This document shows, in pieces, positions 3,001 through 63,457 of a DNA stretch of 64,000 bases. A program made the translations under genes and the position numbers. Location of the stretch: positions 32,001 to 96,000 of the IMG/VR virus record IMGVR_UViG_2651870089_000025; one strand, 5' to 3'. This DNA is from a virus. Lineage: Duplodnaviria > Caudoviricetes. The stretch's first letter is position 1. The number at the start of each line of letters is the position of its first letter. Below the pieces are notes generated by a model. It saw nothing but the letters and a program-made list of their open reading frames with translations. It was not told the origin of the DNA and did no database searches.

Positions 3001-5981
3001 TTGATGCAAACACGTTAACTGTAAACTGGGGAGGTGTTGTTACACCAGGTTATATAAACATTATTAAATCACGATATGGCTTTGGCACGCTGATTCCTTC
3101 TTCTAATATTTGGGAAATAACGCATAACTTAACAGGTACAGACGGTATTGTTAATATAGATATTATTAATGCATTCGATGACGAGTCAATGCAGGCTAAA
3201 ACAGAATTTCCGTTAATTGAATATACAACAGAATCAACATGTCGTGTGATTTTCCCTTCGGGTGTAGCATTAAGTGGTTATGTAGTTGCACATAACAGCG
3301 CCGGCAATGCAGGTGCAACAGGATCAGGTTATGTACATGAACAACTTTCTCCTGCAACTACATGGACTATTTCACACAACCTTGGCATGAAGCATTGTAG
3401 TGTTGATATTGCTGTTTTAGGTACACACGTCGATGGCGCGGACTTTAGCGAATCGATTGATCCTACTTTGTATTATAACATTCGAGGATCATACAGTTAT
3501 CCAACAATAACATTTGTTGATGAGAACACATTAACAGTTACTTTTGCCACAGCAACACCAGGAAAGGCAGTTATTACTTACGGTGACTACCATGGTAGTC
3601 AACAGCAGTCAGTTGGTATTGCACATATGGAAGTAGGCGACGATGCAACAAATCCATCAGGGTGTCCTCCTGTTACAATTAATAGTGGCGGCTCGGGATT
3701 TGTTGCCGGTGATGTGGGAAAAATTTACACAGTAGTCGGCGGTACAGGAACGTCTGCAACGGTTACTATTGCTACTGTTGATACTGTTGGAGGTACATGT
3801 ACTGGTGTTACTTTAACCGACCGCGGAGATTATACTGCACTACCAACTGTTATTGGTTGTGCTACTAGCGGCGAAGCCGGTAGTGTTGGCGTTGGTTTAA
3901 CGCTCGATCTTAACTTTAGAGTTAAAACCGTAGAACTTACTGTCTCCGGAGATGGTTATCAATCAACACCAAACGTTATTATAGATCCGCCTATAGGTAC
4001 TTGCGGTACCGGAACACAAGCAGAAGGTGAACCAACACTTGACGGTGAAGTTGCAAGTATTAACGTAGACGATCCTGGTTCGGGGTATACCGGAGCTCCG
4101 GTTATTACTATATCAGGCGGAGGCGGTGTTGGAGCAACTGCCACAGCAACACTCTCAAATAGTGTTGTTGGTGCTACTATACTGAGCTCCGGCTCGGGCT
4201 ACAGGCCGACTGGCGAAATTTTAACGGTAGGTACTTTTGGAGCAGCAGATGCATCAAGAGCATCGGGTATTTACGGTGGAGTATCTGGTACATCAACTGG
4301 CGCTGGATTAAACGCATTATTTACTATAACAGTAGATGCTTCTGGTGCAGTAACAGCCGTTACTATACCATCTGGCGGATTTGGCTATGAGGTTGGTGAC
4401 ATAATTACAATTAGCGACGCAGTATTAGGCGCTGGCGGCGCCCCTGATTTTACAATGCTAGTAGCATCGGTGTATGAGTTGTCTGTTACTTTCCCTGCTC
4501 CGTCTAGTCCCGGTGCTATAACCCCTGTAACGGCAACAGGTACTGCTGTTGTTAATGCATCGGGCAACGTAACTGGAATTTCAATTACACAAGGTGGCAC
4601 AGGTTACAGTTCCCCGGCAGATGATAGTCAAGCGATTACTATACCGCCTAGTGGTGTTATCGAATCTATCGAAATTACTGATACAGGATATGGTTATACT
4701 TCACCACCGTTTATAACATACCCAACTACAGCAGGAGGAACTGGCGCATCACAAGCAGGCGTGTTTGGATTTGTAAGTAGAGTGCAAATGAATGATTTTG
4801 GAAGTGGGTACACTATAAACGATGCAGTAACATTTACTACACCGCCTGCACCGGGAACACAAGCACAAGGTACATTATTGGTACAAACAACAAAGCCTTA
4901 TACAGATAATATTAACTTTAATATGTCTAGTTTGTTAACTTACGAAGATGGCTATCGAGATCCTAAGAAGGTACTAGTCACATTTGCAGATAGCGACAAC
5001 GATTTAATACCAGATGATCCACTAAGTTTTGATAAGTTTGTTACTGGAAACAAGCACATTTTCCAGGAAACATATGTTGATTTTGATGGATATGTATATT
5101 ATAGATTAACAAGAAATGTTTTAGAAGCAGCCAGCCAAGCAGATGAAGATTTAATATTAGCAGATGGCGCAACGTTTGCCGGAAAATACATTTATAGAAC
5201 AGATACAACGCAGTTTAAAAAAATTAGCGTATCTGCGCCATATACTGCTACAGTTTTAGTAAATGATACCGATGGAACAACCAAGTTTAAAGCATATATT
5301 GGACGTAGTACGCATATTACGCCAACAGTTACTTCAACTGAGGTTATTGAACATCAACCCGATGACGTATTCTTCCAGTGGAAGCATTATGCACCAGTTG
5401 ATCAACGTGTAGATCCGAGTGCAACAAATCTTGTCGATTTGTTTGTACTAACTAGAACATATTATACGGAAGTATTGTCATGGAAAGCAAATAATAGATC
5501 CGTAGATGTTTTCCCTGCGCCTCCTACTACTGCTGAACTGGGAGTTTCAATGGACTTGCTAAGTACTTACAAGAGTATCAGTGATGAGATTGTTTATAAG
5601 CCAGTTAAGTTTAAGCTATTATTTGGTTCAGCAGCTGGTACAGAACTGCAAGCAAAATTTAAGGTTATTAAAGTAGTTGGTAGTACAATGAGTGACAACG
5701 AATTGCAAAGTAGTGTAATTGAAAAAGTGAACGAGTTCTTTGATATCACAAATTGGGATTTAGGCGAAAGTTTTTATTATACTGAATTATCAGCATATAT
5801 TCATCAAAACTTACCGTCACATTTAAGTAGTATAGTAATTGTACCAAAGCAAGCAGAAAGTAACTTTGGTAACTTGTTCCAGGTAAAAGCAGAACCTGAT
5901 GAATTGTTTTTGAGTGTAGCAACTGTTGCTGATGTTGAAGTAGTAAAAGGCTTTACAGAGCAAAACTTAAAGATTAGATAA
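3..5981 (+). CDS. Baseplate wedge protein, T4 gp6-like, with a large inserted repeat region; 5' end lies just upstream of the window
   Basis: The frame is open from nt 3 (QRQSNLFAAEDWRTIY...YDFDTIKSAM), so the track's start at 108 is internal. gp6-type motifs: ELLAYMG..AFRQDLNVRENFLDTAERKESVLRLA..LNYKPKR, IRFADGNFG, AETVTEIKTNA..YYTQDRMITGEDY. Gly/Thr-rich beta modules are inserted at about 2340-4890. Confidence 0.85.
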   Translation, partial: QRQSNLFAAEDWRTIYRTFSEINFTAYDFDTIKSAMVEYMQNNFPEDFNDYIESSEFIAIVELLAYMGQTIAFRQDLNVRENFLDTAERKESVLRLAEMLNYKPKRNIPSTGLIKVYALRTTESVLDSTGQELANRNIIWNDANNTEYLEQFILILNRALLSRNPYGTPVKKGTLNGIITELYQLNSRPNTNVVYNVSSTVNSVSAPFEVVNATFEDEQYVTEIEPNPTSSFGLLYLNDGLGNSSESTGFFTYIKQGSLEFKDFNIAVPLANRAINVPVTNINEFDVWVQTIDSTGEVLASWTKVPSVSGTNVIYNSVIQGTRNIFSVETQADDTINIRFADGNFGDIPYGIIRVWYRTSLNQQITVRPEDVQVQSIRIPYTDTEGLPQTLTVTLELLTSMANSLPAETVTEIKTNAAQTYYTQDRMITGEDYNIYPIFKNPNILKLKSVNRTHSGHNRGVDINDPTGTIQNLNVFAEDGMLYRDLQDTQVTFNLTASMTANTIIQRYIQTQLSVDELTNFYYDTYRKEVQRLEGAIAWKLTNTEQLQWVCLPNSKESNTGYFVEKDKSFLTTNSVTIGSSLSTGKRRYLTEQSLIEFTNQAGNDIQYATIENIISNGDPAGLTTGPVELNKEIPQGFILTRFFPTLRRLFNQTEKVAITAQLDLKNTFGIGYDYTTLEYYVIAPNNLDNVTLTYNRTFARDVTGDNKDASWIIKVEYFPATSSTSASYTITTRGLRYIFESEQDVRFYFNNEYKTIDINTGFAKKDLLSLLKVNVDRRAQIESVTITNPGSGYSFAPSVTFSAAGEVDEAQATAYLSWNTVTGGIGGSGYLPTDTSLTYLDSTVVDGNGNQTEISINNEGVLAPWGRSLQLKANLSSNASATILMANDAVGSITLTNGGANYTSPPTVTISAPAGVGGVQATASAIIAQELTGWNFTATNYQGGGYQNVPNVYIDPPGYTGSTWTVNHNLNQKYVNFEIVDENHRVINTVYNPPTVTFVDANTLTVNWGGVVTPGYINIIKSRYGFGTLIPSSNIWEITHNLTGTDGIVNIDIINAFDDESMQAKTEFPLIEYTTESTCRVIFPSGVALSGYVVAHNSAGNAGATGSGYVHEQLSPATTWTISHNLGMKHCSVDIAVLGTHVDGADFSESIDPTLYYNIRGSYSYPTITFVDENTLTVTFATATPGKAVITYGDYHGSQQQSVGIAHMEVGDDATNPSGCPPVTINSGGSGFVAGDVGKIYTVVGGTGTSATVTIATVDTVGGTCTGVTLTDRGDYTALPTVIGCATSGEAGSVGVGLTLDLNFRVKTVELTVSGDGYQSTPNVIIDPPIGTCGTGTQAEGEPTLDGEVASINVDDPGSGYTGAPVITISGGGGVGATATATLSNSVVGATILSSGSGYRPTGEILTVGTFGAADASRASGIYGGVSGTSTGAGLNALFTITVDASGAVTAVTIPSGGFGYEVGDIITISDAVLGAGGAPDFTMLVASVYELSVTFPAPSSPGAITPVTATGTAVVNASGNVTGISITQGGTGYSSPADDSQAITIPPSGVIESIEITDTGYGYTSPPFITYPTTAGGTGASQAGVFGFVSRVQMNDFGSGYTINDAVTFTTPPAPGTQAQGTLLVQTTKPYTDNINFNMSSLLTYEDGYRDPKKVLVTFADSDNDLIPDDPLSFDKFVTGNKHIFQETYVDFDGYVYYRLTRNVLEAASQADEDLILADGATFAGKYIYRTDTTQFKKISVSAPYTATVLVNDTDGTTKFKAYIGRSTHITPTVTSTEVIEHQPDDVFFQWKHYAPVDQRVDPSATNLVDLFVLTRTYYTEVLSWKANNRSVDVFPAPPTTAELGVSMDLLSTYKSISDEIVYKPVKFKLLFGSAAGTELQAKFKVIKVVGSTMSDNELQSSVIEKVNEFFDITNWDLGESFYYTELSAYIHQNLPSHLSSIVIVPKQAESNFGNLFQVKAEPDELFLSVATVADVEVVKGFTEQNLKIR

Positions 5982-59269: not shown

Positions 59270-60379
59270 ATGGTAAAACCTTATGATTTTTCTAAATTAA
59301 GAAAAAGTTTAACAAAGAATATTGATGGCTTGAGTTTAGGATTCAATGATCCTAAAGACTGGATCGATACTGGCAGTTATGCATTGAACTATCTTATCAG
59401 CGGTGACTTTTATAAAGGCGTGCCGTTAGGTAAAGTAACAATGTTTGCTGGCGAATCCGGCTCTGGTAAAAGTTTAATTGTAAGTGGTAACTTGGCTCGT
59501 AATGCACAAAAAGCAGGATGCTTTGTGGTTATGATGGACAGCGAAAATGCATTAGATACAGAATGGCTAGAAGCACTTGGTGTAGATATAAGTGAAGATA
59601 AACTTTTAAAAATTAACGTATCAATGATCGATAGCGTAGCAAAAACCCTATCAGAGTTGCTTAAAGGATACCGCGAAGAAAATGAGGGCAACGAATATGA
59701 AGATTGCCCAAAAGTAGTAATTATTATCGATAGTTTAGGTATGTTGCTATCTCCTACAGACATTCAACAGTTTGAGAAAGGAGATCTAAAGGGTGACTTG
59801 GGTCGAAAGCCTAAAGCACTTACAGCATTAATTCGCAATACAGTTAATACTATTGCACCATACCCAATTGGATTCATAGTTACAAACCACACGTATGCAT
59901 CGCAAGATATGTTTGATCCGGATGACAAAATCTCAGGTGGACAGGGTTTTGTATATGCAAGTTCAATTGTAGTTGCAATGCGTAAACTAAAACTTAAAAC
60001 TGATGCAGATGGAAACAAAGTTACAGATGTACTTGGTATCAGGGCGGCGTGTAAAGTAATGAAAAGTCGCTTTTCAAAACCGTTTGAATCAGTACAAGTG
60101 GAGATTCCATATGAAACTGGAATGAGCCCATTTAGTGGTTTAGTTGACATGTTTGAAAAATCTGGTATTCTTGTTAAGCAAGGTAACAAGTTAAAATATG
60201 TTGATAAAACAGGAAACGAGCACAGTTACTTTAGAAAAGGATGGAATGCGGATACAATTCCAATTATCTTACAGGAACAACGCGAAGGTTTGATTTTAGA
60301 GCCTGTTATAGACGATGAACATAGTTATAATGAAGAGGATTTTGAAGAACCGGTCTTGGAAGAAATTGAGGAAGAATAG
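59270..60379 (+). CDS. uvsX: RecA-like recombinase
   Basis: IDTGSYALNYLISG; AGESGSGKS Walker A; DSENALD; IIDSLG; TNHTY; SGGQGFVYASS; KSRFSKPF. Confidence 0.93.
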   Translation: MVKPYDFSKLRKSLTKNIDGLSLGFNDPKDWIDTGSYALNYLISGDFYKGVPLGKVTMFAGESGSGKSLIVSGNLARNAQKAGCFVVMMDSENALDTEWLEALGVDISEDKLLKINVSMIDSVAKTLSELLKGYREENEGNEYEDCPKVVIIIDSLGMLLSPTDIQQFEKGDLKGDLGRKPKALTALIRNTVNTIAPYPIGFIVTNHTYASQDMFDPDDKISGGQGFVYASSIVVAMRKLKLKTDADGNKVTDVLGIRAACKVMKSRFSKPFESVQVEIPYETGMSPFSGLVDMFEKSGILVKQGNKLKYVDKTGNEHSYFRKGWNADTIPIILQEQREGLILEPVIDDEHSYNEEDFEEPVLEEIEEE

Positions 60380-60409: not shown

Positions 60410-60643
60410 ATGGATATTAGTCCCGAAGTATTTGTAGAAATGTGGAATGTACTAAAACCGTACATCCCACAAAAAGAAAGATTTGATGCCGCTTATAGTA
60501 TGATAGATTTTTATGATACAAATGGTGACATTGAAGAATTAAGAGAAAGCGATATTTTGGATTCCTATCTTGCTAAAGCGTTAAATGAATACCTAGACGA
60601 AGAATTAGATGACGATGACGAAGATGAGGATGACGACTATTAA
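60410..60643 (+). CDS. Small acidic hypothetical protein
   Basis: SD GGAG; lies between uvsX and uvsY; acidic tail. Confidence 0.6.
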   Translation: MDISPEVFVEMWNVLKPYIPQKERFDAAYSMIDFYDTNGDIEELRESDILDSYLAKALNEYLDEELDDDDEDEDDDY

Positions 60644-61128
60644 TGGCTAGTTGGTATCAACGTGTAGTTGAAGATATAACTGTCCTTCCAGATTGCATAG
60701 ACTATTTTGAAGGACAGTTAGCCGAAGCACGAAACGAAGTTAGATTTAACGGAAGTATTGAAAAAGCCTCAAGTGCTATTCCGGCTATTGTGCAAACAAG
60801 GTTTTCCGAGTTGCAAGAAATTGAAGCAATTTTGGAGCATTTAAATATACATTTACGAAAGTTGCGAGCACAAACTTTTAGAATGTATTTAGAAAAATAC
60901 AACAGGCAGTTAAGTTCGCGCGATGCAACGGCATTTGTTGACGGCGAACAAGTAGTTGTAGATCAATCAGAACTTATTAATGAATTTGGTTTATTACGCA
61001 ACCAGTTTCTTGGGGTGTTGAAAGCACTAGAAGCAAAGCAGTTTCAAATCAACAACATTGTAAAATTACGTGTGGCCGGCCTCGAAGATTCTGAAATCAA
61101 TATGTTTTACGGTAATCCTAATAAGTAG
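60643..61128 (+). CDS. uvsY: Recombination mediator protein
   Basis: YLEKYNRQLSSRDA..FVDGE; LKALEAKQFQINNIVKLRVAGLED; adjacent to uvsX. Confidence 0.8.
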   Translation: MASWYQRVVEDITVLPDCIDYFEGQLAEARNEVRFNGSIEKASSAIPAIVQTRFSELQEIEAILEHLNIHLRKLRAQTFRMYLEKYNRQLSSRDATAFVDGEQVVVDQSELINEFGLLRNQFLGVLKALEAKQFQINNIVKLRVAGLEDSEINMFYGNPNK

Positions 61129-61148
61129 TAATAGATGTAGATAATTTG

Positions 61149-61178
61149 TTGACAAGCAAGTTGTCTATAGTGTATAAT
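61149..61178 (+). promoter_or_regulatory. Sigma70-type promoter with an overlapping inverted repeat
   Basis: TTGACA-18-TATAAT; GACAA-N5-TTGTC inverted repeat at 61151-61165. Confidence 0.65.
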
Positions 61179-61211
61179 AGTTACATTAATTTATTGTAAA
61201 GGAGAATTGTA

Positions 61212-61613
61212 ATGAGTATTAATCTACGTAAAGCCGCCACTTTACAAGAGCAAATTCGTCAAACTATCAGTGACATAAATCTTGACAGCGTACCAAACGG
61301 CGAGTTACCAGATCGTTTAAATCGTGTAGAAGAACTTGAGTCAGTACTTTTTAGTTTGCGAGATAAAGTAGGCAAAGCAAATGTTGAATCTGGTGTTAGT
61401 ACTTTGTTAACTAAGAGAGTTCAACTTAACACACTTATTAGCAGATACGAAAAATTAGTTCGCAATGGACACGAAGAATATAAATCCAAGTTATCTGACT
61501 TCCGTCGCGAGAGAGTAACAATAAGTGAACAAATTTTAGAGTTGAATGTTAGTTCTATGGTTAATTTAACAGAAACAGACATGAATGTGCTTGCTAAAGA
61601 AGAGATAGTATAA
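61212..61613 (+). CDS. Small coiled-coil protein of unknown function
   Basis: Strong SD (AAGGAG); helical heptads; motifs INLRKA, LRDKVGKANVESGVSTLL and ILELNV. Confidence 0.75.
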   Translation: MSINLRKAATLQEQIRQTISDINLDSVPNGELPDRLNRVEELESVLFSLRDKVGKANVESGVSTLLTKRVQLNTLISRYEKLVRNGHEEYKSKLSDFRRERVTISEQILELNVSSMVNLTETDMNVLAKEEIV

Positions 61614-61616
61614 ATA
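61609..61616 (+). promoter_or_regulatory. T4-type late promoter (TATAAATA) overlapping the stop codon
   Basis: Exact consensus, with no protein-coding gene evident before the next terminator. Confidence 0.55.
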
Positions 61617-61621
61617 CAGTC

Positions 61622-61762
61622 GTAACCGGGTGTTGTAGGGTAAACAAGCGAAGACGAAAACAATACTTGCTAATATTGTTCTAGAGATAAAGATAAGATA
61701 AGATAAGGTATACCTGGTTATTTGCTGGAAGGGCGTCAGAAATGGCGCCTTTCTTTTTTTTT
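61622..61762 (+). ncRNA. Candidate structured non-coding RNA with GAUAA tandem repeats
   Basis: 12-bp closing stem 61622-61633/61710-61721; inner hairpin 61659-61680; four GATAA copies at 61686-61706; terminator at the 3' end. Confidence 0.55.
61728..61762 (+). terminator. Rho-independent terminator
   Basis: GAAGGGCGTCA-GAAA-TGGCGCCTTTC followed by T9. Confidence 0.88.
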
Positions 61763-61804
61763 GTTTATAATTGACAAATGCGGTTTATCTGTTATTATAA
61801 TAGT

Positions 61805-62011
61805 ATGAATAAAATAGAAAAAATGGTCAAAGAATGCGTAGACGCCATAGGCGACATTGCTATGAAGAATGACATAAATATTATTGATGAGGATTTTGTT
61901 AAAGACATAGCACTTTCGTCAAAGTTTTTAAACGCAGCCTTTGATCGACAATTTTGTCAAGAAAACGTTTTACACGAGCATATGTCTAAATTAACAAATT
62001 CTCTATCTTAA
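61805..62011 (+). CDS. Small hypothetical early protein
   Basis: Probable start MNKIEK just after TTGACA(61771)...TATAAT(61796). The track's 61778 start lies inside the promoter. Confidence 0.5.
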   Translation: MNKIEKMVKECVDAIGDIAMKNDINIIDEDFVKDIALSSKFLNAAFDRQFCQENVLHEHMSKLTNSLS

Positions 62012-62029
62012 CGATAGGGGCGTTCGTAA

Positions 62030-62359
62030 GTGAGATACAAGTTATATCTAGATAATGCTGGTCTTCCGGTGCATATCGGGTCAGGATTTAAAGGCACCGC
62101 TGGCTGGACAATAAAACAGGATTATGATGATGTAATTGATCATATAGAGAAACATGGTTGTCCTGTGTTTATCAGTTTTGGTAATCAAATAAGTGGTGGT
62201 TTAGGTAAAACAATGTACGATTTAGCCAACTGGCTTATTGCACAAGATCTAAAAGGACAGTTTTTTCCCGATGATTTTGATTTTACTGTACACTCAGACA
62301 ACCCTATGGATGTTGCAAATATTTCTAATCTATTGAACGCTTATTTAAGGTCTCGCTAG
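62030..62359 (+). CDS. Divergent cyclic-phosphate-processing receiver-like domain protein
   Basis: YKLYLD(N)...W....YDD.I.HIEKHGCP.FISF...G..KTMYDLANWL...F.FTVHS.NP pattern. Confidence 0.55.
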   Translation: MRYKLYLDNAGLPVHIGSGFKGTAGWTIKQDYDDVIDHIEKHGCPVFISFGNQISGGLGKTMYDLANWLIAQDLKGQFFPDDFDFTVHSDNPMDVANISNLLNAYLRSR

Positions 62360-63343
62360 GCCTCGATTAATTAACTCTTTAATCTTGCCCATTTGCAATA
62401 CATCGTGTATAGTCATAGTTGACGAATTCCACCATGGGTCTAAGTCTAGTTCTATAATTATTTTTATTGTAGTTTCGTGTGCATATTGTAGTTCGGCTTT
62501 TTTTGCCTTGGTAAACTTAAAGTTTGGTTCTATGTTGTAAATGTCGCTTACATTTTGATCTATGATTAATTTATCCATATCGATTAATTTTTCGTTGCTA
62601 TCGAGATCAAACAAAAGATTTTCGGTGTAATCTTCGATAAAGTAATTAATATATTGTTTAAGTTCTATACCTGTGATTAGGTGTTTATTGTGCTTTGTCT
62701 TAACTTTTTCAAAGTGAGTAATATATTTGTATAACCCTAACACCATTGGCAACCATGTTCTGTTTTTACTAAATCTAGCGTATACTTTGTTTTGAAATTT
62801 TAGATCTATTGGTGTCTTTGTATTTTGTGTAGGCAATCGATATGGGTAGTGATGAAACTTTAAATATTTAAAAGACGATAATAATATATTATCAGGAATT
62901 TGCAATGGCCGTGACAATGGAATTGTTATAATCTCGTTAAGTTTTTTAGTTTCGTTTATGTTATTTAAAACAAACTCCTCGTTATTAAAATACTTTTCCC
63001 AGGAGATACTAGGCAAGTTGAAAGTGTACTTTAATAGTAAAATAGTTCTAATGTATATTTTAAGTATAGTTTCTTCTGATTCGTTTGTATAATGTTTTTT
63101 AATTTTTTTGTAAATAGGAGTTTCTTGATAGCCAGCAGTACCAAATATACATTCAACAACATCATTTGAAAGCCACTCGTAGTTAGTCTTTAATGGATTG
63201 GTACTTTTTGCAGACACATTGATTAAATTAGGATTTTCTGTTTTGTGATGATCCTCAAGCAAAAAATGCATTAAAAAATGTCCCATAGATCCCGGAGGAT
63301 AAATGAGAGGAGTAAAATGGTTAAAAAATGTTTCGCCGAGCAT
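62345..63343 (-). CDS. Hypothetical protein (N-terminal YPPGSMGHFL motif; possibly sulfotransferase/P-loop-like)
   Basis: 332-aa AT-rich ORF with an exact late promoter TATAAATA on the minus strand at 63348-63355. Confidence 0.55.
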   Translation of the reverse strand: MLGETFFNHFTPLIYPPGSMGHFLMHFLLEDHHKTENPNLINVSAKSTNPLKTNYEWLSNDVVECIFGTAGYQETPIYKKIKKHYTNESEETILKIYIRTILLLKYTFNLPSISWEKYFNNEEFVLNNINETKKLNEIITIPLSRPLQIPDNILLSSFKYLKFHHYPYRLPTQNTKTPIDLKFQNKVYARFSKNRTWLPMVLGLYKYITHFEKVKTKHNKHLITGIELKQYINYFIEDYTENLLFDLDSNEKLIDMDKLIIDQNVSDIYNIEPNFKFTKAKKAELQYAHETTIKIIIELDLDPWWNSSTMTIHDVLQMGKIKELINRGLARP

Positions 63344-63457
63344 CAGTTATTTATAGCACGTTTCAATGCTGGATGTTGTATAGATAAGAACTATTCTTAT
63401 TTAAAAACCTATAAAAACAAGCGGTTTTTTGTTGTAAAAATCCCACACTTTTTAAGA

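What the first reader, a model, noticed from the sequence alone, without database searches (positions are those of the whole stretch)
61149..61762. Coiled-coil gene plus a downstream repeat-bearing structured ncRNA: candidate protein-RNA two-component system
Seen in sequence: a self-contained unit of sigma70 promoter, SD, 133-aa coiled-coil ORF, about 140 nt with no evident gene, and a strong terminator. The non-coding part has a 12-bp closing stem (GTAACCGGGTGT 61622-33 / ATACCTGGTTAT 61710-21), whose G-U pairs argue for selection at the RNA level. It also has an inner hairpin (AACAATA/TATTGTT), a purine-rich single strand (AAGCG AAGACG AAAAC) and four GATAA pentamers (61686-61706). An exact late promoter TATAAATA overlaps the ORF stop and would start transcription about 5 nt before the stem, so the RNA could also be made on its own late in infection. 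Inference: an oligomeric helical protein binds the 5-nt-periodic RNA, with a type III toxin-antitoxin-like logic, as an RNP scaffold, or for autoregulation. Alternatively the RNA decoys a host RNA-binding protein such as Hfq, which binds A-rich repeats. The LR...AN...G...LL / ELN pattern recalls DIP1984-like coiled-coil proteins, but I have not verified this.
Basis: partly seen in the sequence, partly recalled or inferred. Interest (0 to 1): 0.85.

Follow-up and report, generated by a model that had tools for sequence, protein, structure and literature searches.

The report
New phage small RNA beside helical-protein gene
Behind a small helical-protein gene, an uncultured marine giant phage carries a conserved, folded small RNA that matches no catalogued RNA family, and relatives of the protein in other giant phages are usually followed by RNA genes or non-coding DNA, so protein and RNA may work together.

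Summary
Promoter, SD, 133-aa ORF, 12-bp closing stem, inner hairpin, four GATAA units, TATAAATA on the stop codon and the terminator all sit at the stated coordinates.

The non-coding part is a real, conserved structured RNA. Every locus held with a protein homologue (66-100% identity) has it. Eleven of 12 closing-stem pairs show compensatory changes. The interior is A-rich and C-poor, with one conserved motif, AUACUUGCUAA(N)AUUGU. Rfam 15 has no match.

ATAAATA behaves as this phage's late promoter and sits 3-5 nt before the 5'-terminal helix in most lineages. So the RNA is probably made both as the 3' end of the early mRNA and alone late in infection.

The GATAA run is not conserved. It has three copies in a 99%-identical strain and is absent elsewhere, so it is a slippage microsatellite. 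Type III TA logic fails.

The protein is a compact helical bundle. It is DIP1984/DUF6847-like by fold only, and it is a shortened member of a ~188-aa jumbo-phage family. In 70 of 84 loci that family is followed directly by another unlisted ~210-nt structured RNA or a CAU tRNA. A protein-RNA partnership is therefore plausible but unproven.

An overlapping window of this scan noted the same stretch.

The parts
61149..61178 (+). Early sigma70-type promoter of the 133-aa gene (TTGACA, 18-nt spacer, TATAAT)
   Evidence: 12 of 12 consensus match. A TTGACA...TATAAT promoter stands at the same place in all 19 homologous loci inspected.
61193..61211 (+). Translation initiation region: AUUGUAA, AGGAG (SD 61200-05), AAUUGUAAUG. 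Two WUUGUW motifs flank the SD.
   Evidence: Conserved in class A loci. Class B keeps the copy upstream of the SD. Motif density per 100 nt is 4.4 here, 0.21 in the ORF and 0.27 window-wide. This arrangement occurs at no other start in the window.
61212..61613 (+). 133-aa helical-bundle protein. It is a shortened member of a ~188-aa jumbo-phage family, and DIP1984/DUF6847-like by fold only.
   Evidence: 114 close homologues. AF2 pLDDT 95.1. 3kdq_A Z 11.0 over 117 residues. hhalign against the ~188-aa family gives probability 99.9%, E 5.6e-37. No Pfam, PHROG or NCBIfam hit.
61609..61616 (+). T4-type late promoter TATAAATA overlapping the stop codon. The predicted start is at about 61622, the first base of the closing stem.
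   Evidence: TATAAATA is depleted in the window: 4 found, 11 expected. Of 18 ATAAATA sites, 12 lie in the ~3% left non-coding by a crude ORF call, mostly 4-60 nt before a same-strand gene start. The motif is conserved 3-5 nt before the 5'-terminal helix in most homologous loci, and lies beyond the stop codon in many.
61622..61633 (+). P1 closing stem, 5' arm
   Evidence: In P1, 89.5% of cells are paired, against 30-42% when the partner is slid. 11 of 12 pairs show changes on both sides.
61634..61709 (+). A-rich, C-poor interior loop of about 76 nt, with weak and variable local structure
   Evidence: Interior composition over 24 distinct sequences is 46% A and 7% C, against 34% A and 17% C window-wide. 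No inner helix is conserved across lineages.
61663..61679 (+). Conserved motif AUACUUGCUAAUAUUGU, the only long conserved sequence in the interior
   Evidence: Invariant or nearly invariant columns in A2, A4 and A5. Class B carries the variant AUGAUUGUUAAUUGU.
61685..61707 (+). GATAA microsatellite (4.4 copies), not a conserved part of the RNA
   Evidence: TRF. There are 3 copies in L029/L001, whose protein is 99-100% identical. A 5-nt deletion at 61690 appears in an RNA-library contig. The run is absent from other lineages.
61710..61721 (+). P1 closing stem, 3' arm
   Evidence: Same as the 5' arm.
61722..61724 (+). Conserved UUG directly after P1
   Evidence: Invariant in class A alignment A2.
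61727..61762 (+). Intrinsic terminator: 12-pair stem, GAAA loop, 9-T run. It ends both the early mRNA and the late RNA.
   Evidence: The stem covaries across loci. In all four RNA libraries laid, contig depth beyond it is lower than on the ORF (weak evidence).

Best explanation
This is a gene for a previously uncatalogued phage small RNA. The core is about 105 nt, or about 140 nt with its terminator. It lies directly behind, and always together with, the gene of a 133-aa helical-bundle protein, next to uvsX/uvsY in an uncultured marine jumbo myovirus lineage.

Shown:
- The RNA has a 10-12-bp closing stem that covaries strongly and only makes sense on the + strand.
- Its interior is compositionally constrained: A-rich, C-poor and indel-rich.
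- It carries one conserved 17-nt motif, and a conserved terminator follows it.
- It is present at every homologous locus held and was found nowhere else.

Inferred from sequence:
- It is made twice. Early, it is the 3' end of the mRNA started at the sigma70-type promoter. Late, it is a free ~140-nt transcript from the ATAAATA promoter, which ends 3-5 nt before the 5'-terminal helix.
- The stem ties the 5' end to the terminator-proximal end. This would protect the RNA and display the unstructured loop with its UUGCUAA/AUUGU motif as a binding platform.

Most likely mechanism (inference, about 40-45%): the RNA is the partner or regulator of the protein encoded upstream. The protein would recognise UUGU-type motifs. 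These occur both around its own Shine-Dalgarno sequence (autorepression) and in the RNA (titration, or assembly of an RNP).

The GATAA run is a slippage microsatellite inside the loop and is not part of the mechanism.
For: RNA structure and conservation:
- Searches show the same layout behind every homologue.
- RNAalifold finds P1 plus the terminator.
- Pair counts for P1: 89.5% paired against 30-42% when slid; 11 of 12 pairs change on both sides; covariation score 0.66 against 0.11-0.24 when slid; 0 of 500 shuffles reach the observed value.
- G-U pairs lie on the + strand only.
- Covariance model R1 finds one copy in the window (69.5 bits) and one in the 107.5-kb virus record.
- R1 finds the RNA in all 35 homologous loci searched, including 9 loci that were not used to build it (74-82 bits).
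- Among 117 IMG/VR stretches that match the motif pattern, only the 9 already known to carry the protein gene pass the model.
- Downstream genes differ between lineages: a 61-77-aa gene plus a cREC_REC gene, a PHO4-like gene, or a radical SAM gene. The upstream order uvsX, small acidic gene, uvsY, this gene is fixed.

Late promoter:
- (see parts).
- In class B loci a second covarying hairpin starts 3-4 nt after ATAAATA.

Expression (weak): an RNA-library contig joins the ORF to the RNA as far as 61716. In the two best-covered runs, contigs on the ORF have depth 85-91 against 11 or less beyond the terminator; the two thinner runs show about 6-10 against 5 or less.

Protein-RNA link:
- The 133-aa protein is homologous end to end to a ~188-aa family (hhalign probability 99.9%).
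- Of 84 loci of that family, 44 are followed directly from the stop codon by a different ~210-nt structured RNA. It covaries and is not in Rfam.
- 7 more loci carry part of that RNA, and 19 are followed by a CAU tRNA or, in one case, another tRNA within about 30 nt.
- Three further subfamilies have 264-356-nt non-coding gaps after the gene.
- The WUUGUW motif is 16-fold enriched in the TIR and 5-fold in the RNA.
Against: - No experiment and no raw reads show a discrete ~140-nt species or its ends. Contigs cannot show them.
- The protein is not basic by my own residue count (about 19 K+R against 21 D+E), and it has no recognised RNA-binding domain.
- The shared UUGU motif was noticed after the fact. 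It is not enriched in the TIRs of the distant ~188-aa family.
- Neighbourhood conservation within each subfamily is largely inherited, so only about five independent lineages support the gene-then-RNA rule.
- One relative, P0129, is followed directly by a protein gene.
- In L020 and L042 the late-promoter motif is degenerate.
- The RNA may already be one of about 8,500 unnamed candidates predicted from IMG/VR (PMC10690425). I could not check this.
Confidence: 0.6

Rival explanations
1. The RNA is a trans-acting phage sRNA or sponge that works without the neighbouring protein. Its exposed A-rich loop and conserved motif would either base-pair with a host or phage mRNA, or soak up a host RNA-binding factor such as Hfq, ribosomal protein S1 or RNase E. 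The linkage to the 133-aa gene would only reflect a shared transcription unit.
For: It has its own late promoter and terminator and a 5'-terminal helix. The loop is single-stranded, A-rich and C-poor, with one conserved 17-nt motif and no conserved inner helix. These features are typical of seed-bearing or protein-titrating sRNAs (established knowledge).
Against: No complementary site better than chance was found in the 64-kb window: the best other matches have 2-3 mismatches, with 18 found against 10.5 expected. The host is unknown, so host targets cannot be searched. The pentamer period does not fit the ARN triplet rule for the Hfq distal face. This rival does not explain why distant relatives of the protein are also followed by RNA genes.
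Confidence: 0.22
2. It is a purely cis-acting 3' end of the early mRNA. A long stem plus terminator would stabilise or insulate the transcript, and the TATAAATA would be incidental or would serve read-through into downstream genes.
For: An RNA-library contig joins the ORF to the RNA. In class B loci the next gene (PHO4-like) has no recognisable promoter of its own and must be reached by read-through.
Against: A stabiliser needs only the terminator. It would not need a covarying 12-bp stem enclosing about 80 nt of constrained composition plus a conserved 17-nt motif. The late-promoter motif is kept at a fixed 3-5 nt from the first helix, even where it lies wholly outside the coding sequence.
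Confidence: 0.1
3. It is a riboswitch or attenuator. P1 would close a ligand-binding aptamer, and the adjacent terminator would be its expression platform controlling late read-through into the downstream gene.
For: P1 ends 5-12 nt before a terminator. In class B a transporter-like gene follows without a promoter of its own.
Against: Downstream genes differ between lineages. In class A a perfect early promoter lies between the terminator and the next gene. The interior is indel-rich and low in complexity, and has no set of conserved junction nucleotides. No anti-terminator pairing is evident. Rfam shows no aptamer match.
Confidence: 0.04
4. It is a DNA-level element rather than an RNA. One possibility is an R-loop-type replication origin beside uvsY, as with T4 ori(uvsY). 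Another is a recombination or protein-binding site.
For: It lies next to uvsX/uvsY. A promoter is followed by a purine-rich transcribed strand (61-69% purine), which favours stable RNA-DNA hybrids (established knowledge of T4 oriF).
Against: The stem covariation tolerates G-U pairs on the + strand only. On the other strand, or in DNA, these would be A-C or G-T mismatches. The promoter is of the late type, whereas T4 origins use middle promoters. A strong terminator follows directly.
Confidence: 0.03
5. It is a type III toxin-antitoxin-like pair, in which the repeat RNA neutralises a toxic protein.
Against: The repeats are 5 nt long, 3-4 copies, strain-variable and absent from homologues. The RNA lies downstream of the gene, not upstream. 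The protein is a helical bundle with no resemblance to ToxN, AbiQ or CptN among its fold matches.
Confidence: 0.01

Closest known systems
3'-UTR-derived sRNAs with an internal promoter of their own (for example DapZ in Salmonella and MicL in E. coli; from established knowledge)
   Same: The promoter sits at or inside the 3' end of the upstream ORF. The sRNA shares the mRNA's intrinsic terminator, so it exists both as a UTR and as a free RNA.
   Different: Here the internal promoter is a phage late promoter, so the two forms would be separated in time. No Hfq dependence or target is known. The RNA has a long closing stem around a large A-rich loop, not a 5' seed.
Phage T4 stable RNAs C and D (rnaC, rnaD) of the tRNA cluster, function unknown (from established knowledge)
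   Same: They are small stable RNAs of T4-type phages with no known role. The relatives of the protein studied here lie in tRNA clusters and are followed by an unlisted ~210-nt RNA.
   Different: No sequence comparison with T4 was made. T4 has no detectable homologue of the protein. The window itself has no tRNA genes.
T4 translational operators (RegA and gp32 autoregulation)
   Same: A short A/U-rich motif lies over the SD/AUG of the regulated gene and recurs elsewhere. From memory only, the T4 RegA SELEX consensus contains AAAAUUGU, which resembles the motif here.
   Different: No RegA gene was found in the partial record, and the control search did not ring, so this says nothing. In the window the motif arrangement is confined to this one gene. 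The candidate binder is an unrelated helical protein.
Type III toxin-antitoxin systems (ToxIN, CptIN, AbiQ/antiQ)
   Same: A protein gene and a non-coding RNA with short repeats share one transcription unit with a terminator.
   Different: The gene order is reversed, the repeat unit is 5 nt instead of about 34-36 nt, the repeats are not conserved, and the protein has no endoribonuclease fold.
DIP1984 / DUF6847 family (PF20935, NF038048; formerly annotated 'septicolysin'), with PDB 3KDQ from Corynebacterium diphtheriae
   Same: It shares the overall helical-bundle fold: VIA-align Z 11.0 over 117 of 133 residues, and Foldseek probability 0.95-0.99. The nearest Atlas clusters carry PF20935.
   Different: No HMM match at any permissive threshold. 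The function of the family is unknown, so the resemblance explains nothing about mechanism. That 3KDQ is DIP1984 itself is my recollection and was not verified.

Membership tests
Any Rfam 15 RNA family | Covariance-model match at or near the family's gathering score | tested here: not met
   A permissive scan of 60500-62500 gave a best hit of 21.9 bits (L20_leader, gathering score 58.7, E 0.23). Nothing was credible.
DIP1984 / DUF6847 (NF038048, PF20935) | Match to the family profile HMM above its curated cut-off | tested here: not met
   There was no hit for the 133-aa protein in Pfam at E<=0.1 or NCBIfam at E<=0.1. NF038048 found nothing in the whole virus record at E<=10. None of the 81 family members scanned matched PF20935 at E<=1.
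DIP1984 / DUF6847 (NF038048, PF20935) | Same fold as the family's solved representative (3KDQ) | tested here: met
   3kdq_A is the top match of 48,161 chains: Z 11.0, rmsd 4.6, 117 residues aligned, 20% identity. The next match scores Z 8.8 over a 61-residue hairpin. Foldseek gives probability 0.95-0.99 and TM 0.46-0.54. Atlas neighbours carry PF20935. Caveat: for helical bundles, Z below about 13 can reflect a common arrangement.
~188-aa jumbo-phage protein family (no Pfam or NCBIfam hit for the members scanned) | End-to-end profile homology | tested here: met
   hmmsearch found 392 representatives at E<=1e-3. hhalign of A1 against A7 gave probability 99.9% and E 5.6e-37, with all 133 columns aligned and two deletions. 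Atlas structure TM is 0.93-0.94 to clusters of 188 and 191 aa.
Type III toxin-antitoxin (ToxIN-like) | The antitoxin is a tandem array of ~34-36-nt repeats, conserved with the toxin | tested here: not met
   The only repeat has a 5-nt unit, 3-4 copies, varies between strains and is absent from other lineages.
Type III toxin-antitoxin (ToxIN-like) | The RNA gene lies upstream of the toxin gene, separated by a terminator, and the toxin is a ToxN/AbiQ-type endoribonuclease | tested here: not met
   The RNA lies downstream of the ORF. The protein is a helical bundle. The matches listed from the two PDB fold searches include no ToxN-like chain.
Riboswitch with terminator expression platform | The same regulated gene class lies downstream, with no promoter in between | tested here: not met
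   Downstream genes differ between lineages. An 11-of-12 early promoter lies between the terminator and the next gene in the window, and the same arrangement holds in all class A loci.
Riboswitch with terminator expression platform | Many invariant unpaired nucleotides at helix junctions, forming a ligand pocket | tested here: not met
   Only one 17-nt motif and a few UUG triplets are conserved. The interior is indel-rich, and no inner helix is conserved.
T4-type late transcription unit | A TATAAATA (NATAAATA) box a few nt upstream of the transcript start, used genome-wide before late genes | tested here: met
   An exact TATAAATA stands at 61609-16. Of 18 ATAAATA sites in the window, 12 are intergenic and lie before same-strand starts. 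The octamer is depleted elsewhere. Use of this promoter has not been shown experimentally.
3'-UTR-derived sRNA with its own promoter | A discrete free transcript that shares the mRNA's terminator | not testable with these tools
   Only Logan contigs of RNA libraries were available, and they cannot show transcript ends or levels.
Hfq-binding sRNA | An intrinsic terminator with a U-tail plus (ARN)n or U-rich Hfq sites, and a host that has Hfq | tested here: inconclusive
   The terminator with a 9-U tail is present. The loop is A-rich, but its 5-nt period does not fit ARN triplets. The host is unknown.

The most novel reading that the evidence does not exclude
The DUF6847-fold protein family of jumbo phages is a dedicated RNA partner. 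Each lineage pairs it with a structured RNA encoded directly after its stop codon. In this marine lineage that is the ~105-nt stem-closed A-rich RNA. In freshwater-type jumbo phages it is an unrelated ~210-nt multi-helix RNA next to a CAU tRNA. Together, protein and RNA would form a previously unrecognised phage ribonucleoprotein. Here the free RNA made late in infection would titrate the protein off its own mRNA or assemble it into an RNP.
Probability: 0.3. Interest if true: 0.8.

Novelty: new member of a known kind. Interest (0 to 1): 0.6.

Why it matters
Very few small RNAs of lytic phages are known, and almost none from uncultured marine jumbo phages. This one has strong comparative support: compensatory stem changes, conserved promoter and terminator placement, and presence at every homologous locus held. 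It can be tested directly with synthetic constructs, without a cultured host.

The wider pattern may matter more. A large protein family of unknown function is usually followed by RNA genes or non-coding DNA in several jumbo-phage lineages, including a second ~210-nt structured RNA that is not in Rfam. This gives a first functional handle on that family and on DIP1984/DUF6847-like proteins in general. It also points to a possible new class of phage RNP.

If instead the RNA acts alone on the host, it would be a rare example of a late, phage-encoded regulatory or decoy RNA.

Tried and rejected
**Searches that found nothing**
- Rfam permissive scans of the window region and of the second RNA gave nothing credible.
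- blastn (distant mode) and tblastn against 50,697 phage records found no match for the 2-kb region or the 133-aa protein.
- PHROGs, Pfam and NCBIfam found no family for the protein.
- The PDB sequence search returned only coiled-coil bias hits.
- A search of the window for a site complementary to the conserved motif found nothing beyond chance.
- Literature searches found no description of this RNA or of the function of the protein family.
- The window has no tRNA genes.

**Searches that say nothing either way**
- RegA (PF01818) was not found in the virus record, but the control genomes did not ring either and the record is only 29% complete.
- Model R1 found no copy in the uvsX regions of Vibrio phage 2.275.O and Agrobacterium phage Atu_ph07, nor in 26 loci of the distant ~188-aa family. 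The RNA is therefore lineage-specific.
- The supplement of the IMG/VR candidate-RNA catalogue (PMC10690425) is not held as text. I could not check whether this motif is among its 8,495 unnamed candidates.
- The search for related loci with the whole ~188-aa alignment failed because the alignment was too diverse.

**Ideas considered and dropped**
- RNA-library contigs end at 61652-61654 in three runs. I read this as an assembly break at a strain SNP (G/A at 61653 between the window and L029), not an RNA end.
- WUUGUW enrichment in the TIRs of the distant family was not found: 7 of 54 TIRs carry it, 0.33 against 0.19 per 100 nt.
- Readings of the conserved motif as an anticodon-loop mimic, a CsrA-type GGA sponge, or a MotA-box middle promoter were considered on the sequence. 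They were dropped because loop sizes, GGA counts and spacings do not hold across lineages.
- A small peptide in the RNA was rejected. No start codon is conserved: an AUG is present in L005 but absent in L007.
Full report
**1. The observation**

- a perfect sigma70-type promoter at 61149-61178 (12 of 12);
- SD AAGGAG at 61200-05;
- a 133-aa ORF at 61212-61613;
- TATAAATA at 61609-16 across the stop codon;
- a 12-pair closing stem, 61622-33 with 61710-21, with three G-U pairs;
- an inner 7-bp hairpin, 61659-65 with 61674-80;
- four GATAA units at 61686-61706;
- a strong intrinsic terminator at 61727-62.

The 155-nt stretch folds better than all 200 shuffles (z = -2.96). The closing stem is in both the MFE and the centroid structure.

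**2. Context**

The window is part of a 107.5-kb virus record that CheckV rates 29% complete, which implies a jumbo phage. Upstream lie UvsX (59270-60379), a 77-aa acidic protein and a UvsY-like mediator (60643-61128; phrog_231). The closest UvsX proteins are those of jumbo myoviruses: Sinorhizobium phage Phosso, Agrobacterium phage Atu_ph07, Xanthomonas phage XaC1, Vibrio phage 2.275.O and a set of ~340-360-kb enterobacterial phages. No cultured phage has the 133-aa protein or this DNA.

**3. The RNA is real and conserved**

The protein has 114 close homologues (66-100% identity) in marine and estuarine metagenomes. I fetched 28 IMG/VR loci, 6 metagenome loci and 19 assembly loci.

Every locus long enough shows the same layout behind the stop codon:
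- an ATAAATA-type box;
- a helix starting 3-5 nt later;
- about 75-90 nt of A-rich sequence;
- the 3' arm of the helix;
- a short linker (UUG in class A);
- a terminator.

RNAalifold recovers the closing stem and the terminator. Counting the stem on 20 distinct sequences gives:
- 89.5% of cells paired, against 30-42% when the partner is slid by 1-3 columns;
- 11 of 12 pairs with changes on both sides;
- a covariation score of 0.66, against 0.11-0.24 for the slid versions;
- no shuffle of 500 reaching the observed value.

G-U pairs occur on the + strand, so the selected structure belongs to the + strand transcript.

A covariance model of the core (R1, 112 positions) gives these results:
- It finds exactly one copy in the window (69.5 bits) and one in the whole virus record.
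- It finds the RNA in all 35 homologous loci searched, among them 9 that were not used to build it (74-82 bits).
- Of 117 IMG/VR stretches that contain the motif pattern, only the 9 contigs already known to carry the protein gene pass the model.
- It finds nothing behind uvsX/uvsY of Vibrio phage 2.275.O or in the uvsX region of Atu_ph07.

Rfam 15 has no match, even at E<=10.

**4. Anatomy**

There are two classes.
- Class A includes the window. P1 starts at the predicted late transcription start.
- Class B is the branch whose proteins are about 68% identical to the window's. It has an extra 5' hairpin that itself covaries (UUGAUG...CAUCAA becomes AUGAUG...CAUCAU), followed by P1.

The interior has no helix conserved across lineages. 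It is constrained in composition: 46% A and 7% C, against 34% and 17% in the window as a whole. It holds one conserved motif, AUACUUGCUAA(N0-2)AUUGU. Class B has the variant AUGAUUGUUAAUUGU.

The GATAA run is not conserved. L029 and L001, whose proteins are 99-100% identical, have three copies. An RNA-library contig shows the same 5-nt deletion. Other lineages have only generic purine-rich sequence. The RNA around it, however, is not.

**5. Transcription**

The early promoter before the ORF is conserved in all 19 loci inspected.

ATAAATA behaves as this phage's late promoter:
- Of 18 copies in the window, 12 lie in the ~3% left non-coding by a crude ORF call. Nearly all of these are 4-60 nt before a same-strand gene in the structural region.
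- The full octamer is depleted elsewhere, with 4 found against 11 expected.
- In many loci the box before the RNA lies beyond the stop codon, sometimes duplicated. Coding constraint therefore does not explain it.
- It is degenerate in L020 and L042.

Downstream genes vary. They are a 61-77-aa gene plus a cREC_REC gene with their own early promoter, a PHO4-like gene without one, or a radical SAM gene. The RNA therefore belongs with the upstream gene.

Four metatranscriptome runs hold the region as contigs.
- One contig joins the ORF to the RNA as far as 61716.
- In the two best-covered runs, contigs over the ORF have depth 85-91 against 11 or less beyond the terminator. The two thinner runs show about 6-10 against 5 or less.
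- This is weak support for termination at 61762 and none for a free RNA.
- The contig ends at 61652-54 coincide with a strain SNP, and I read them as assembly breaks.

**6. The protein**

AlphaFold2 gives a confident compact bundle (pLDDT 95.1, pTM 0.78): five helices, with two short strands that pair the N-terminus with residues 116-118. It is not an extended coiled coil.

The best solved match is 3kdq, an uncharacterised Corynebacterium diphtheriae protein: Z 11.0, 117 residues aligned, clearly above the next match. Foldseek gives probability 0.95-0.99. The ESM Atlas places the protein next to viral clusters that partly carry PF20935 (DUF6847), and next to one bacterial cluster named 'septicolysin'.

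No profile HMM of DUF6847 or DIP1984 matches it.

An exhaustive profile search found 392 representatives, mostly 185-195 aa, that align end to end. hhalign gives probability 99.9% and E 5.6e-37. The window protein is a shortened member of this family, with two deletions.

**7. Relatives of the protein are mostly followed by RNA genes**

I fetched 84 loci of the ~188-aa family, on contigs up to 364 kb. The sequence immediately downstream of the gene falls into these groups:

| Downstream of the stop codon | Loci |
|---|---|
| Conserved ~210-nt sequence, full length (...ACAGACCCCGG...GGACAGAGUAACAGCUCAGUCUAGGGC...GCUAGACAC) | 44 |
| Part of that sequence | 7 |
| A tRNA within about 30 nt (CAU anticodon in 18 of the 19) | 19 |
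| Other | 14 |

- In 42 loci the first tRNA downstream has a CAU anticodon.
- The ~210-nt element has several covarying helices: 12 of 22 predicted pairs show double changes. It has no Rfam match.
- The genes lie inside tRNA clusters.
- The three further subfamilies sampled (L044, L177, L180) have non-coding gaps of 264-356 nt.
- One relative, P0129, is followed directly by a protein gene.
- Model R1 does not match any of these loci, so the RNAs differ between lineages.

This raises the odds that the protein family works on or with RNA. The caveat is that synteny within each subfamily is inherited, so only about five lineages count as independent.

**8. A motif shared by the ORF's start region and the RNA**

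The TIR reads AUUGUAA-AGGAG-AAUUGUAAUG. The same WUUGUW word follows the 5' arm of P1 and ends the conserved motif in the RNA. Its density per 100 nt is 4.4 in the TIR, 1.3 in the RNA, 0.21 in the ORF and 0.27 window-wide. The SD-flanking arrangement occurs at no other start in the window.

This fits a protein that represses its own translation and is titrated or assembled by the RNA. But the motif was noticed after the fact, and it is not enriched in the TIRs of the distant family.

**9. Verdict**

- The structured RNA is real (about 95%).
- It is a separate late transcript as well as a 3' UTR (about 70%, inferred from sequence).
- It works together with the upstream protein (about 40-45%, inferred from neighbourhood and motif).
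- The GATAA periodicity and the type III TA logic are rejected.
- The riboswitch, pure stabiliser and DNA-origin readings are unlikely, for the reasons given under rival explanations.

The RNA is a new family within a known kind: a phage-encoded small RNA derived from a 3' UTR with its own promoter. It may already be one of the thousands of unnamed IMG/VR candidates of PMC10690425, which I could not check.

Noticed in passing
L183-L252, for example L194:1771-1981 and L186:1771-1985 (other jumbo-phage contigs, not the window): A conserved ~210-nt structured RNA starts at the stop codon of the ~188-aa relatives of the window protein and is often followed by a CAU tRNA. It has several covarying helices and an almost invariant GGACAGAGUAACAGCUCAGUCUAGGGC...GCUAGACAC 3' domain. 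Rfam has no match. It looks like a second uncatalogued phage RNA family.
   Followed up: partly
L035:6579-6680 and L039 (about 3084-3190): Between the terminator of the RNA and the PHO4-like gene, some class B phages carry two tandem copies of a ~40-nt unit. Each copy has a GCCAGACUCCUGGC hairpin. Sister loci (L036, L022) lack the unit, so it may be a small inserted repeat or a regulatory element.
   Followed up: no
window 62030-62359 (+): The 109-aa product matches PF20274, the cREC_REC cyclic-phosphate-processing receiver domain (E 3e-10). The gene recurs two genes downstream of the RNA in class A loci (L040, L174).
   Followed up: no
window 63348-63355 (-), before ORF 62345-63343 (-): An exact TATAAATA ends only 4-5 nt before the ATG of a 332-aa minus-strand ORF that has no family match. 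Either the transcript is leaderless or nearly so, or the true start codon lies further in.
   Followed up: no
window 60410-60643 (+): A 77-aa protein with a highly acidic tail sits between uvsX and uvsY. Its tail is encoded by GAT/GAC/GAA repeats (TRF 60596-60636). Its position is conserved in all related loci (75-83 aa), and it has no family match.
   Followed up: no
L212:2635-2707: An Rfam freshwater-2 RNA (RF02980; 55.6 bits, above the gathering score) lies about 900 nt downstream of a ~188-aa family gene in a freshwater-type jumbo-phage contig.
   Followed up: no
L171-L173 (gene call 1694-2761): In some assemblies the PHO4-like gene was called 35 codons too long, so that it runs across the RNA and the terminator. 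Automatic annotation would hide the RNA there.
   Followed up: partly
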